From the human T2T-CHM13v2.0 reference genome, Homo sapiens: a DNA stretch of 64,000 nucleotides. Position 1 is the stretch's first letter. Each line of letters opens with the position of its first letter. Below the pieces are notes generated by a model, which saw only the letters and a program-made list of their open reading frames with translations, did no database searches and was not told the origin of the DNA. Location of the stretch: assembly GCF_009914755.1 (NCBI RefSeq), contig NC_060932.1; one strand, given 5' to 3'. Below are positions 46,835 to 52,295 of the stretch, one piece after another. The position numbers and the translations under genes are program-made.

Positions 46835-48570
<1,736 letters not shown>

Positions 48571-48584
48571 TTCAAGTCAGTAAA

Positions 48585-48705
48585 AAATTTATAATTTTAA
48601 TAAAATTAAAGTCAATAAATTTTATAATTTTATTTAATTTTTAATTAAATTAATTTTAATTTTATTTAATTTATTAATTTAATAATTTTAACAAAATTAA
48701 AAAAT
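48585..48705. repeat. AT-rich low-complexity tract
   Basis: almost exclusively A/T. Confidence 0.9.
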
Positions 48706-51700
48706 AAGATGGCCCACGGGACACAGCCATGTGTAAGAGCTTCCACGCAGAAACGAAGAGGACTGGCACACTCCTAACATCTTCAGAGGGAAGTCACAGA
48801 GTGGGCAGAAGGAAGACACAGAAGCTGGGCTGAAGGGGGAGGAAGCTGGGAACCCTGCATGGGGCTGCCATGCACCAGGACTCATTTCTGGCCCCCACCC
48901 AACTAATCTGGAGAAATGGATGAATTGAACTGGCAAGGAGCAACCCGCTCTCACCAGGAGCCGAGATTCTGAAATCTCGGCGGGAGACCCTTCGACCATG
49001 AGTTGACCTGCTCCACTACGTGACACTGCATGGAGCGATGTGTAGTGTGCGGACTCCGATCTTAGAGGTCAGATGTGGATGCTCAGGGATTCACCGAACT
49101 AGATTCCTGACTGATTGACCAGCGGGTGGACTCTGGGGAACACGATTGAGAAATGCGTACTTTGGGAGTGAAAACTGGCCCCGGGACAGGAGGGAGTGTG
49201 GTGCAAGCTGTCTTCTCCGTGAAATCCACGCTGTGTCCGGCAGCGTGGATTTCATGGACTTCGTTCCAGTGTGACAGATATTGCCACTCTGAGGTCGTGG
49301 GTCTGGAGTCTACTCTGAACTGCTGCTTAGAGAAGTGGTAAGGGCAGCAGCCCAGCTGATACCTAGTCCAGGATTTGGTGCTGGTGCGTCTGTAGCCCAC
49401 CACAGCTAGGAACACCCATTTCCCAAAGCTCAACTTGCTCCCTTAGGAGACTTTAGCCCTAGGGGAACTGTCCAACCTGAATTCTGCAAGGTGGTCTTGC
49501 CCATCAGATAGGGCCATCCAACCTGAGGACTCCTTGGTCTGCTGGCCTCTCCCAGGGGTCCAGCCTGGCTGTGCCTGCTTACAGGGTAGCCTTGGGTGCC
49601 CTAGGGGCCCACACCATAGCTCCTGTGCTGATGGAGCCTGCCTGACTGATGGGGAGCTCCAGCCGGGCAGCCCCCACAGCCGCACACCAGCCTGCCAGCT
49701 CCCTCCCCACACTACAGACTTCCCTGGGCCCACAGCAAGCCCCCACATCGCTTTGCTGGCACTTTTGTGCACAGGCGGGTTTTGCCTTCCTTGCCCCGCC
49801 AGCATGTGTGTGTGCATGCACCCCGCCCTGCCACTGCTGCAGCAGGAGTACACTCTGGCACCCCCACATGGAAGCCATTGCAGTTGGAGCCAGCCCCACC
49901 AGTGCCCCACCCTTGCACCAACACTGCTGCAAGAGTGAAACTAGGCAGAGAGAACAGCCGACCATCCCCCTGCCCTAAGCAACCACCCTTGCCTGCTGTA
50001 CACAAAAAGCATACACAGACCTGCACCTGCCAGCCCCCCACCCCCAAGCTAACACCACACCGCCACCAGCGCAACCGCACCAGCAAGACCCCCCCAGCCC
50101 AACCCCCAAGGCATGCTGCCTCTGCCACTGTGAGTGAACACCAGCATGGAAGAAGGCACCCCAGCATCCACTACTTAGGTCTTAGGAATTGATTTCTTGA
50201 TTTCTTCTTTATTTTATTATTAAGGAGATATTATTAATAAGCACATTATTAAGGTGCTCCAACACAGGAGCTCCCAGGTTCATAAAGCAAGTTCTTAAAG
50301 ACCTTCAAAGACACTTCAAAGACACTTAGATTCAGATAAAACAGACTTTAAGCCAACAATGATCAAAAATGTGAAAGAAGGGCATTATGTAATGACAAGG
50401 GATTCAATCCAATAAAACTTAACAATCCTAAATATATACACACCAAACATTGGAGCACACAGATTCATAAAGCAAGTACTTTTAGACCTACAAAAAGATT
50501 TAGCCACACAATAATAGTGGGAGACTTAAACCACTACACTGACAGCATTAGGTGGATTATTGAGGCAGAAAACTAACAAAGAAATTCAGGACTTAAATTT
50601 GACGCTGGAAAAATTGGACCTAATTGACATCTACAGAATACTCCTCCATCCATCAACCACATTCTTCTCACCTGGACATGGAACAAACTCTAAGATCGAC
50701 CACATGCTTGACCATAAAATAAGTATCAATAAATCCAAGAATATAGAAATCATACCAACCATACTGTCAGTCCACAATGGAATAAAAATAGAAATCAATA
50801 CCAAGAAGATCTTCCAAAACTACACAATTACATGGGAATTAAACAACTTGCTTCTGAATGTCTTCTGGGTAAATAATGAAATTAAGGCAGAAATCAAAAC
50901 ATTCTTTGAAATAGATGAAAATAGAGATACAACATACCAAAATCTCTAGGATGCAACAAAAGCAGTGCTGAGGAAAGTTTATAGTGCTAAATACCTATAT
51001 CAAGAAGTTAGAAAGATCTCAAATTCAGATCTAACATTACACCTAGAGGAACTAGAAAAAAAAAAAAAAACTAACCTGAAAGCTAGAAGAAGAAAAAAAT
51101 TACCAAAATCAGAGCAGACCTAAATGAACTTAAGACCTAAAAACCTATACAAAGGATCAAAAAAACCAAAAGTTGGTTTTTTGAAAGAATAAACAAGAGC
51201 AATAGATCATTAACTAGATTAACAAAGAAAAAGAGAATATCCAAATAAGCACAATCAGAAATGACAAAGGTGACATTTCAATTTATCCCACAGAAATACA
51301 AATATAAAAAATCCTCAGAGACTATTAAACAGTTATAGCCACCTGATCTTTGACAAAGTTGTCAAAAGTAAACAATGGAGAAAGGACTCCCTATTCAATA
51401 AATAGGGAATAGCTGGAATAGCTGGCTAGCCATATGGAGAAGAATGAAACTGAATCCTTACCTTTTAAAATATATAAAAATCAGCTCAAGATGGATTAAA
51501 GATTTAAATGCAAGACCTCAAACTATAATATCTCTAGTAGAAAATACTATTCTGGACATCAACCTTGATAAAGAATTTATGATTAAGTCTTCAAAAGCAA
51601 TTGTAACAGAAACTGACAAGTGGAAACTAAACTAAAGAGCTTCTGCACAGCAAAAGAAACTATCGACAGAGTAAACAGACAACCTACAGAATGGAAGAAA

Positions 51701-51955
51701 ATATTTACAAACTATGCATTCGACAAAGGTCTAATATACAGACTCAATGGGGAACTAAACAATGCAACAAGTAAAAAACGATAACCTCATTAAAGGGTGG
51801 CCAAAGAACATGAACAGACACTTCTCAGTAGATAACAAATGGCCAAGAAACATATGAAAAAGGGTTCAATATCACGAATCAGAGAAATGCAAATAAAAAC
51901 CACAATGAAATACCATCTAACAGGGAGTATGGCCATTATTAAAAAGTCAAAAAAA
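48706..51955 (+). mobile_element. L1PREC2/L1PA15-16-like element: 5'UTR, EN domain, 3' ORF2, with large internal deletions
   Basis: aagatggcc..cttcagagggaag..gaagctgggctgaagggggaggaagctgggaaccctg; ORF 50560-50949 is L1 endonuclease (DLIDIYR..SKIDHML). Confidence 0.85.
49013..49319. other. unassigned CpG-rich ~300-bp insert with inverted repeat, inside the L1 5'UTR
   Basis: splits tgagttg..gctgcttagagaagtgg, contiguous in the recalled L1 consensus; flanked by tga(c/a)ctgct; 15 CpGs; 14-bp perfect IR 49220-49254. Confidence 0.7.
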
Positions 51956-52295
51956 TCAGTCAATGAAAAACACCACATTAGTAGAATGAAGGGTAAAAAC
52001 TCATTATTATCTCAAACAATGCAAAAAATTTTGACGAAATTACTGCCTTTTTATGATTAAAAAAACACTCAATAAGCTAGGAATAGAAGGAAACCACCCC
52101 AACATAATGAAGTCCATAAATGAAAAAGCCAAAACTAACAGCAAACTCAAGGATAAAAGACCAAAAAAGCTTTTCCTCTAAGATCATGAACATGTTACTG
52201 AAGTCCTACCCAGAGCAATTATGCAAGGAAGATAAATAAAAGGCTTCCAAATTGGAAAGGAAGAAATCAGATTATCTCTGTTTGCAAAGGACATT
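51956..52295 (+). mobile_element. L1M ORF2 (RT region) fragment
   Basis: aacactcaataagctaggaatagaaggaaac..gcttttcctctaagatca..attggaaaggaagaa. Confidence 0.8.

What the first reader, a model, noticed from the sequence alone, without database searches (positions are those of the whole stretch)
49004..49324. Unexplained ~300-bp CpG-rich insert inside an L1 5'UTR, bounded by a short direct repeat
Seen: 49013-49319 has no Alu/L1/LTR hallmark, no poly(A) tail and no clear TIRs. It is flanked by tgacctgct (49004-49012) and tgaactgct (49316-49324). It holds 15 CpGs, against 1 in the equally long L1 stretch just downstream (49325-49630). Knowledge: in the L1PREC2/L1PA15-16 5'UTR as I recall it, ..TGAGTTGGCAGGGAGAGCTGCTTAGAGAAGTGG.. 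is contiguous, and here the halves are ~310 bp apart. Inference: a much younger or foreign or unmethylated module placed just downstream of the L1 internal promoter start. It could be an uncharacterised structured RNA or mobile unit, a captured or viral fragment, or an assembly or engineered artefact. No frame gives a recognisable protein.
Basis: partly seen in the sequence, partly recalled or inferred. Interest (0 to 1): 0.8.

Follow-up and report, generated by a model that had tools for sequence, protein, structure and literature searches.

The report
Ribosomal-spacer-derived DNA patch inside old L1
The 300-bp CpG-rich block is a fragment copied from a low-copy relative of the ribosomal DNA intergenic spacer and patched into an already old L1 element, most likely during repair of a DNA break, so it is a rare but ordinary kind of event rather than a new mobile element or RNA gene.

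Summary
25 of 25 sibling copies of this L1 5'UTR lack about 300 bp at the site. The 9-mers TGACCTGCT and TGAACTGCT lie at the stated places. The block has 15 CpGs, against 1 in the L1 stretch downstream.

The block is not L1, not a transposon, not an Rfam RNA and not an artefact. Positions 49019-49319 are 90% identical to chr12:38003883-38004183. They are 86% identical to two chrY palindrome copies and 71-78% to chr19 and to one copy beside each of the five rDNA arrays.

At chr12 the homolog is the inner part of a 675-bp segment set in a degraded rDNA intergenic spacer. Present-day rDNA units lack that segment.

The patch has diverged about 5% since it split from the chr12 copy. The surrounding L1 is about 15% from its siblings' majority base. 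So the patch arrived long after the L1.

The junctions show no poly(A), a 6-nt filler, a 7-nt loss of L1 sequence and short junctional homology. This fits a templated patch at a break. The CpG richness is mostly inherited from a CpG-rich donor.

Interest is low to moderate.

The parts
48706..49012 (+). 5' end and first ~300 bp of the 5'UTR of an old, internally deleted L1 (left flank of the patch)
   Evidence: Homology to 25 sibling L1 copies begins at 48706 in many of them and runs to 48998. A sibling carries L1 ORF1 and RT domains.
49004..49012 (+). Left copy of the short direct repeat, TGACCTGCT (L1 sequence; CTGCT recurs on the right)
49013..49018 (+). 6-nt filler CCACTA that matches neither L1 siblings nor donor paralogs
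   Evidence: register of window against the chr12 copy; L1 siblings.
49019..49319 (+). Donor-derived patch: internal fragment of a 675-bp segment of rDNA-intergenic-spacer-like DNA. It lies in the sense orientation of rDNA transcription and of the L1.
   Evidence: Identity is 90% to chr12:38003883-38004183(-), 86% to two chrY copies, and 71-78% to chr19 and five acrocentric copies.
49216..49258 (.). 18-nt inverted repeat with a 7-nt loop inside the patch; inherited from the donor and eroded in the older paralogs
   Evidence: I1, 94% complementary; intact in chr12 and chrY; a 4-nt deletion in one arm in chr19 and the DJ copy.
49316..49324 (+). Right copy of the direct repeat, TGAACTGCT. TGAA is shared with the donor paralogs; CTGCT leads into the L1.
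49322..50173 (+). Continuation of the L1 5'UTR (right flank)
   Evidence: aligns to sibling L051 395-1266.
50259..51956 (+). Remainder of the same L1: an ORF2 5' fragment (50259-51327) and the 3' end (51343-51956). Two large internal deletions separate it from the 5'UTR and split it.
   Evidence: matches sibling L051 2997-4021 and 6782-7415. None of the window's own ORF pieces hit Pfam.
48940..49324 (.). CpG-island-like stretch: 385 bp, 20 CpGs, GC 0.548, obs/exp 0.70. It covers the patch plus the last 73 bp of the left L1 flank. The right edge is sharp.
48960..48981. Perfect 9-nt palindrome (GCCGAGATT / AATCTCGGC), created by a 5-nt insertion unique to this L1 copy, about 45 bp left of the patch
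   Evidence: I7. In one search, the 17 aligned siblings all lack the 5 nt.

Best explanation
About 300 bp of DNA (49019-49319) was copied from a low-copy sequence related to the rDNA intergenic spacer (IGS) and inserted into a resident, already old L1 5'UTR. The donor family is a 675-bp segment that lies next to IGS sequence in degraded spacer copies. These copies sit at the chr12 pericentromere (both arms), in a chrY palindrome, at the chr19 pericentromere, and at the telomere-side end of each of the five rDNA arrays. Present-day rDNA units lack the segment, so it is best read as an ancestral spacer segment later deleted from the arrays.

The insertion most likely happened when a double-strand break or collapsed fork in the L1 was repaired by an end-joining or template-switch pathway that used this sequence as a patch. 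The patch could have been copied from DNA or from a cDNA of a spacer transcript. This matches the class 2 'templated sequence insertion' type.

Shown: the donor family, the fragment nature of the patch, its absence from other L1 copies, its younger age than the L1, and the junction anatomy. Inferred: the repair pathway, whether the template was DNA or RNA, and the ancestral-spacer reading. The CpG richness is mainly inherited from a CpG-rich donor and has only partly decayed.
For: 1. Donor family. The patch alone finds 10 places in the whole assembly: itself, chr12 (90%), chrY twice (86%), chr19 (78%), and one per acrocentric chromosome (71%, E 4.6e-23). None of these shares the L1 flanks.

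2. It is a fragment.
- chr12 and chrY are 85% identical over more than 3.2 kb around the homolog.
- chr12 homology to chr19 and to the DJ copy extends about 60 bp left and about 200 bp right of the window piece.
- The 675-bp segment finds only 6 places.

3. IGS context.
- The flanks of the chr12 copy match every rDNA unit listed, at 76-83%.
- Rfam places the site about 15.0 kb upstream of the pRNA/promoter match in a 42,527-bp unit.
- The canonical unit has about 25 bp where chr12 has 675 bp. It has no homolog of the patch in 50 kb searched with word size 7.
- The segment is colinear with IGS sequence in chr19, in the DJ copy and at chr12p.
- On chr22 the copy lies 8.9-9.1 kb distal to where canonical rDNA starts.
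- PMC5381670 (abstract and passages read) reports degraded rDNA units, including IGS, near centromeres, and pseudogenic array ends.

4. Age. On the 298 aligned sites the window branch has 15 changes, chr12 has 13, and chrY plus the ancestral branch has 25. The window's L1 flank differs from the leave-one-out sibling majority at 40 of 268 non-CpG sites; siblings range 9.4-16.3%.

5. Junctions.
- No poly(A) or poly(T), and no A/T-rich L1-endonuclease-type target.
- A 6-nt filler.
- 7 nt of L1 (AGGGAGA) are missing.
- CTGCT is present on both sides.
- TGA(A/C) is shared by the donor end and the target.
- PMC5110952 (abstract and passages read) lists microdeletion, microhomology and non-templated addition, without poly(A), as the marks of class 2 templated insertions.

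6. CpG counts in the same 298 bp: window 14, chr12 15, chrY 9, chr19 3, DJ copy 5. Nine CpGs are shared by window and chr12. The whole 3-kb chr12 copy has obs/exp 0.26-0.82.
Against: - A 5-9-nt direct repeat flanks the patch. PMC5110952 assigns target duplications of at least 5 bp to class 1 (L1-mediated) events, so the class 2 label does not fit cleanly.
- The real donor locus is unknown. The nearest survivor is only 90% identical. Polarised by outgroups, only 2 changes are clearly shared by window and chr12 against chrY, with 10 ambiguous. The three lineages therefore separated at about the same time, and the donor may have been a copy or an array variant that no longer exists.
- The ancestral-spacer reading rests on colinearity at 67-70% identity in chr19 and the DJ copy. 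It is not checked against the rDNA of any other primate.
- The age argument assumes similar neutral rates in the patch and in the L1, and that the sibling majority base represents this copy's own progenitor.
- CpG decay is weaker than expected for methylated DNA. Only 3 of 15 changes on the window branch are of the CpG-decay type, and 0 of 13 on the chr12 branch.
- The adjacent L1 flank keeps 3 ancestral CpGs that siblings have mostly lost. Inheritance from the donor does not explain this.
- The genome search states that its counts are lower bounds.
Confidence: 0.75

Rival explanations
1. Reverse-transcriptase-mediated origin. An RNA from the spacer-like locus was reverse transcribed by L1 ORF2p and inserted at a pre-existing break (endonuclease-independent) or at a staggered nick that produced the 5-9-nt duplication. 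Alternatively it was picked up by two template switches while this L1 itself was being copied.
For: A direct repeat of 5-9 nt flanks the patch. Target duplications of at least 5 bp are a class 1 mark in PMC5110952. That paper (passages read) also argues that class 2 patches derive from RNA. The patch is in sense orientation relative to rDNA transcription and to the L1. Short junctional homologies would suit template switching.
Against: There is no poly(A) and no T-rich nick site. The donor ends do not look like splice sites or transcript ends (reading). The double-switch-at-integration version conflicts with the threefold lower divergence of the patch than of the L1 flank. No evidence for a transcript of the donor was available.
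Confidence: 0.13
2. The block, with the adjoining 73 bp of L1, is or became a functional germline-hypomethylated CpG island. It would be an unannotated promoter, enhancer or protein-bound palindrome downstream of the L1 start, and its CpGs would be kept by protection from methylation rather than by youth.
For: 48940-49324 has 20 CpGs, GC 0.548 and obs/exp 0.70, with a sharp right edge. The upstream L1 flank has 8 CpGs against 0-4 in 24 siblings. The three ancestral CpGs it retains (48946, 48978, 48993) all lie within 70 bp of the patch, and siblings keep each of them in only 1-2 of 18 copies. Only 3 of 15 changes on the window branch are of the CpG-decay type. There is a near-perfect 18-nt palindrome.
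Against: The donor copy on chr12 is just as CpG-rich without any such context. Five of the 8 flank CpGs are new rather than retained, and four or five ancestral sites were lost. RefSeq lists no functional element or gene here (hub annotation). There is no Rfam family and no covariation. No methylation or transcription data could be consulted.
Confidence: 0.08
3. It is a complete copy of a low-copy mobile element (DNA transposon, solo LTR or SINE) that transposed into the L1 and made a 9-bp target duplication.
For: An imperfect 9-nt direct repeat lies exactly at the borders. Size is about 300 bp.
Against: Only about 11 loci exist genome-wide. In all the others the homology continues past both ends of the window piece, as part of a 675-bp segment and of multi-kb duplications. 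There are no terminal inverted repeats, no poly(A) and no ORF with a Pfam hit. TGAA of the right 'duplication' is donor sequence.
Confidence: 0.02
4. Assembly or laboratory artefact (chimeric join or vector sequence).
For: None beyond its oddity.
Against: The nearest genomic paralog is 90% identical, and a misjoin would be near 100%. Both junctions lie in unique, well-aligned L1 sequence. There is no plasmid or phage match.
Confidence: 0.01

Closest known systems
Class 2 templated sequence insertions (TSI/TSIP; PMC5110952, abstract and passages read)
   Same: [quoted passage not shown] There is no poly(A). The junction shows microdeletion (7 nt of L1), filler (6 nt) and short homology.
   Different: A 5-9-nt direct repeat of target sequence is present, which that scheme assigns to class 1. 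The event is ancient and presumably fixed, not a polymorphism. The surviving donor is only 90% identical.
Dispersed rDNA-derived pseudogene fragments, the 'rDNA-like signal' (Robicheau et al. 2017, PMC5381670, abstract and passages read)
   Same: The patch belongs to a family embedded in degraded intergenic-spacer copies near centromeres and at array ends. These are the locations that paper describes.
   Different: The 300 bp has no match in the canonical rDNA unit. A search with canonical rDNA as probe, as in that paper, would not find it. It is an interstitial euchromatic site on 8p, inside an L1.
NUMT-type and other captured-fragment 'filler DNA' at repaired breaks (named in PMC5110952 passages; otherwise recalled)
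   Same: Insertion of an unrelated cellular DNA fragment with end-joining-type junctions.
   Different: The donor is nuclear spacer-like DNA, not mitochondrial DNA.
L1 chimeric retrocopies formed by template switching (U6/L1 type; recalled, no paper read here)
   Same: Foreign sequence joined to L1 sequence with short junctional homology.
   Different: Those chimeras carry the foreign RNA at the 5' end of a truncated L1 and arise at integration. Here L1 lies on both sides and the patch is about three times less diverged than the L1.

Membership tests
Class 2 templated sequence insertion (break-repair patch) | Inserted sequence is templated from a distant region of the same genome | tested here: met
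   Paralogs at chr12, chrY, chr19 and five acrocentric array ends, with no shared flanks. The exact donor locus was not identified; the best match is 90%.
Class 2 templated sequence insertion (break-repair patch) | No poly(A) tract and no L1-endonuclease-type (TTTT/A) target | tested here: met
   The ends read ..CTACTCTGAA|CTGCTGC.. and ..GACCTGCT|CCACTACG... There is no A or T run on either strand.
Class 2 templated sequence insertion (break-repair patch) | End-joining marks: microdeletion, microhomology, untemplated addition | tested here: met
   7 nt (AGGGAGA) of the sibling consensus are missing. There is a 6-nt filler, CCACTA. TGA and GCT are shared between the donor end and the target.
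Class 2 templated sequence insertion (break-repair patch) | No target-site duplication | tested here: inconclusive
   CTGCT (5 nt) is on both sides. The longer 9-nt match includes TGAA, which is also donor sequence. The pre-insertion site is not available.
Class 1 TSI / L1-mediated retro-insertion | Target duplication of at least 5 bp, plus poly(A), plus a TTTT/A site | tested here: not met
   Only the duplication is arguable. Poly(A) and the endonuclease site are absent.
Transposable element family (DNA transposon, LTR, SINE) | Multiple dispersed copies that share the same termini; TIRs, LTR ends or an A-tail | tested here: not met
   There are 10-11 loci in all. Homology runs past both ends of the window piece in the others. 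No terminal inverted repeat. Dfam was not available.
Known structured RNA (Rfam 15) | Match to a covariance model at or near the gathering score | tested here: not met
   The best hit in 48600-49800 is E 1.4, at 19.9 bits against a gathering score of 55, and it lies outside the patch. The alignment fold has a covariation term of +5.48.
rDNA intergenic-spacer-derived sequence | Homology to the canonical rDNA unit | tested here: not met
   No significant match of the 307 bp in 50 kb of chr15 rDNA (best E 2.2). Membership is by context only. The homologous 675-bp segment is embedded in, and colinear with, spacer-derived DNA at chr12q, chr12p, chrY, chr19 and the array ends.
CpG island (classical criteria as recalled: at least 200 bp, GC at least 0.50, obs/exp at least 0.60) | Sequence criteria | tested here: met
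   49013-49319: GC 0.537, obs/exp 0.70. 48940-49324: 385 bp, GC 0.548, obs/exp 0.70. No 500- or 600-bp window passed.
CpG island (functional sense) | Unmethylated in the germline; promoter or other activity | not testable with these tools
   No methylation, CAGE or chromatin data were available.

The most novel reading that the evidence does not exclude
The spacer-derived patch, together with the adjoining 70 bp of L1, forms a 385-bp CpG island that has resisted germline methylation since insertion. It would be an rDNA-spacer relic, with an 18-nt palindrome, that acts as an unannotated promoter or protein-bound element just downstream of an L1 start site. Its sequence survives nowhere in the functional rDNA arrays.
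Probability: 0.07. Interest if true: 0.5.

Novelty: new member of a known kind. Interest (0 to 1): 0.2.

Why it matters
It resolves an apparent oddity as a fossil of break repair: an interstitial 8p L1 patched with rDNA-spacer-related DNA. Two small points go beyond that.

First, the patch belongs to a 675-bp segment that seems to be an old part of the human rDNA spacer. It has been deleted from all present arrays and is kept only in escaped copies and at array ends. That gives a marker for ordering the escapes of rDNA copies to chr12, chrY, chr19, chr2, chr14, chr20 and chr22.

Second, fragments of this kind cannot be found by searching with canonical rDNA, so the rDNA-derived share of 'unexplained' human DNA is slightly under-counted.

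No function is indicated.

Tried and rejected
- Rfam at permissive threshold on 48600-49800: 7 weak hits, none credible.
- Single-strand folds: z about -3 on both strands, driven by the one palindrome.
- Five-sequence consensus fold: the covariation term is penalising and many pairs are broken in the older copies.
- ORFs in and around the patch: the longest are 119 aa (-) and 63 aa (+). Pfam gives no hit. The window's own L1 ORF pieces also give none.
- Plasmid and phage collections, distant mode: no match.
- Canonical rDNA unit searched for a diverged homolog of the patch: none.
- L1 subfamily variant: rejected, because 25 of 25 siblings lack the block.
- Whole-alignment divergence of the window L1 (22.9%): discarded, because MAFFT had placed consensus columns against the end of the patch. 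It was recomputed on the secure flanks.
- The search of earlier findings was not open.
Supplements of the two papers were not opened.
Full report
**Observation.**
TGACCTGCT lies at 49004-49012 and TGAACTGCT at 49316-49324. These are the only two matches to TGAMCTGCT on either strand of the 64-kb window. About 1.4 matches are expected by chance, so the count is not unusual; what is unusual is that they bracket the block.

The block 49013-49319 has 15 CpGs (GC 0.537, obs/exp 0.70). The L1 stretch 49325-49630 has 1 (obs/exp 0.04). The contrast is one-sided, because the L1 stretch upstream, 48706-49012, has 8 CpGs.

**The flanks are one L1 5'UTR that is contiguous elsewhere.**
A search of the assembly with 48850-49480 gave 467 first-look candidates, of which 40 were scored. 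I kept 25 sibling loci, L012-L036.
- In all 25, the pieces matching the left and right flanks lie 279-355 bp (median 298) closer together than in the window.
- I aligned 17 of the 25. I left out L014, L024, L025, L026 and L028 for short left-flank hits, and L017, L020 and L034 for having no left-flank hit.
- 16 of the 17 read straight through as ..GAGTTGGCAGGGAGAGCTGCTTAGAG... L031 has a deletion there.

The family is L1. The chr1 sibling carries Transposase_22 (E 7e-23) and RVT_1 (E 4.6e-10) downstream of the same 5'UTR. The window's copy is 48706-48998, 49322-50173, 50259-51327 and 51343-51956, with two large internal deletions. Its own ORF pieces gave no Pfam hit. I could not check the subfamily name.

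**What the block is.**
The 307 bp alone finds 10 places in the assembly (10 candidates, all scored):
- itself;
- chr12:38003883-38004183 (90%; 268 of 298 aligned sites);
- two chrY copies (86%), which are 99.97% identical to each other in inverted orientation;
- chr19:30369072-30369276 (78%, partial);
- one copy on each of chr13, 14, 15, 21 and 22 (71%, E 4.6e-23).

None of these shares the L1 flanks.

The other copies are parts of larger duplications. chr12 and chrY are 85% identical over more than 3.2 kb, and chr19 and the acrocentric copy are 83% identical over 2.6 kb. Homology between chr12 and the chr19 and acrocentric copies continues about 60 bp left and about 200 bp right of the window piece. 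The window block is therefore an internal fragment, not a complete unit.

**Donor context.**
The sequence around the chr12 copy matches every rDNA unit listed at 76-83%. Rfam on a chr15 unit locates the following:
- pRNA at chr15:2552584-2552673;
- 18S from chr15:2556360;
- 5.8S;
- 28S at chr15:2560632-2565693.

The unit period is 42,527 bp. The chr12 copy is a degraded intergenic spacer in reverse orientation. Where the canonical spacer has about 25 bp (chr15:2537553-2537578, about 15.0 kb upstream of the pRNA match), chr12 has 675 bp (chr12:38003574-38004248). The window block corresponds to positions 66-366 of that segment.

A word-size-7 search of 50 kb of canonical rDNA finds no homolog of the block; the best E-value is 2.2. 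Spacer pseudo-copies on chr2, chr14 (two), chr20 and chr22 lack the segment with the same breakpoints as the canonical unit.

The segment is followed colinearly by the same spacer sequence in three other lineages:
- chr19, where the alignment runs almost uninterrupted across the boundary;
- the acrocentric copies;
- a truncated copy at chr12:34141601.

On chr22 the copy lies 8.9-9.1 kb on the telomere side of the point where canonical rDNA begins. That point is chr22:4793796, which corresponds to 3.9 kb upstream of the start-site region. This places the copy in the degenerate spacer-like end of the distal junction; the name is from recall.

The most economical reading is that the 675 bp is an old spacer segment deleted from the arrays after some copies had escaped. 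This is inference. Robicheau et al. 2017 (PMC5381670; abstract and passages read) report degraded rDNA units, including spacer, near centromeres on HSA2 and HSA20, and pseudogenic array ends. That agrees with the places found here.

**Age.**
On 298 aligned sites, three-way parsimony assigns 15 changes to the window branch, 13 to chr12, and 25 to chrY plus the internal branch. Two further sites differ in all three.

With chr19 and the acrocentric copy as outgroups, only 2 changes are clearly shared by window and chr12, 14 are chrY-specific and 10 are ambiguous. So the three lineages split at about the same time, and the true donor may no longer exist.

The window's L1 flank differs from the leave-one-out majority base of its siblings at 40 of 268 non-CpG sites (14.9%). 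Siblings range 9.4-16.3%. An earlier figure of 22.9% was inflated by misalignment at the patch edge and is discarded.

The patch is thus about a third as diverged as the L1. This argues for insertion into a long-resident L1 and against acquisition during L1 retrotransposition.

**Junctions**.
- Left: the L1 ends ..GAGTTGAC-CTGCT. Six bases follow (CCACTA) that match neither partner. Donor homology then starts at 49019.
- Right: donor homology runs to ..CTACTCTGAA (49319), followed by CTGCT-GCTTAGAG of the L1.
- All four paralogs read TGAAAC(G/T)CT at this point, so TGAA, and possibly GCT, of the right 'repeat' is donor sequence.
- Seven L1 bases (AGGGAGA) of the sibling consensus are missing.
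- There is no poly(A), no poly(T), no A/T-rich target and no terminal inverted repeat.

Within 55 bp left of the patch the L1 also carries:
- a 5-nt insertion, unique among the 17 aligned siblings, that creates a perfect 9-nt palindrome (48960-48981);
- a roughly 10-nt deletion, plus two smaller ones.

The right flank aligns without indels. I read this cluster as possible collateral of one error-prone repair event, which is speculation.

This anatomy fits the class 2 templated insertions described in PMC5110952 (abstract and passages read): microdeletion, microhomology, untemplated bases and no poly(A). The exception is the 5-9-nt direct repeat, which that scheme links to class 1. These data cannot say whether the template was DNA or a cDNA of a spacer transcript.

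**CpG.**
The donor family is CpG-rich. In the same 298 bp, chr12 has 15 CpGs, chrY 9, chr19 3 and the acrocentric copy 5. Nine CpGs are shared by window and chr12. The 3-kb chr12 copy has obs/exp 0.26-0.82 throughout. So most of the richness is inherited.

Two things are not fully explained.
- First, only 3 of 15 changes on the window branch, and 0 of 13 on the chr12 branch, are of the CpG-decay type.
- Second, the L1 flank left of the patch has 8 CpGs against 0-4 in 24 siblings (L028 excluded because its hits span 1.35 kb).

Of those 8 flank CpGs, three (48946, 48978, 48993) are ancestral sites that only 1-2 of 18 siblings keep, and all three lie within 70 bp of the patch. Five are new. Four or five other ancestral sites were lost.

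Together, 48940-49324 (385 bp, 20 CpGs, GC 0.548, obs/exp 0.70) meets the classical CpG-island sequence criteria as I recall them, with a sharp right edge. This leaves room, at low probability, for local protection from methylation.

**RNA, protein, foreign DNA.**
- Rfam gives nothing credible.
- The fold z-scores of about -3 on both strands come from one 18-nt palindrome.
- That palindrome is eroded in the older paralogs and shows no net covariation.
- No ORF has a Pfam hit.
- There is no plasmid or phage match.
- A 90% best paralog rules out a recent misassembly.

**Verdict.**
The mobile-unit, structured-RNA, viral and artefact readings are not supported. It is a new example of a known kind of event, with an unusual donor.

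**Limits.**
- No primate orthologues, Dfam, methylation or expression data were available.
- The genome search counts are lower bounds.
- The supplements of the two papers were not opened.

Noticed in passing
L002 1192-1866 (chr12:38003574-38004248); chr15:2537553-2537578 in L042: A 675-bp segment is present in spacer-like copies on chr12q, chr12p (partial), chrY (two copies), chr19 and the five rDNA array ends. It is absent, with identical breakpoints, from canonical rDNA units and from the chr2, chr14, chr20 and chr22 pseudo-units. It could serve as a marker for ordering the escapes of rDNA copies.
   Followed up: partly
window 48706-49012: The L1 5' flank has 8 CpGs against 0-4 in siblings. 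Three retained ancestral CpGs all lie within 70 bp of the patch, and five CpGs are new. This is not explained by inheritance from the donor.
   Followed up: partly
window 48960-48981: A 5-nt insertion unique to this L1 copy creates a perfect 9-nt palindrome (GCCGAGATT/AATCTCGGC). Several small deletions also lie within 55 bp left of the patch, while the right flank has none. This may be collateral of the same repair event.
   Followed up: no
window 50173-50259 and 51327-51343: The host L1 has two large internal deletions relative to a chr1 sibling. About 1.7 kb covering the 3' part of the 5'UTR and ORF1 is missing, and about 2.8 kb of the sibling's ORF2 region (which itself holds Alu-like inserts) is missing.
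   Followed up: partly
L003 and L004 (chrY:19166611-19166909 and 18552136-18552434): The two chrY copies are 99.97% identical over 3.3 kb in inverted orientation, 614 kb apart. This is as expected for palindrome arms.
   Followed up: no
chr12:38003694-38003784 (within L002) against chr15:2547581-2547673 (L045): A roughly 90-bp piece of the 675-bp segment, outside the part copied into the window, is 75% similar (E 2e-12) in reverse orientation to canonical spacer about 5 kb upstream of the promoter.
   Followed up: no
window 48235-48299 and 48625-48691: A purine-rich tandem array (AAGAGGGG-type) and an AT-rich tandem array (TAATT-type) lie just upstream of the L1 5' end (composition).
   Followed up: no
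L046 4758-4847 (chr15 rDNA 5' external transcribed spacer): Rfam mir-663 matches above its gathering score inside the rDNA unit used as reference, alongside pRNA, 18S, 5.8S and 28S.
   Followed up: no
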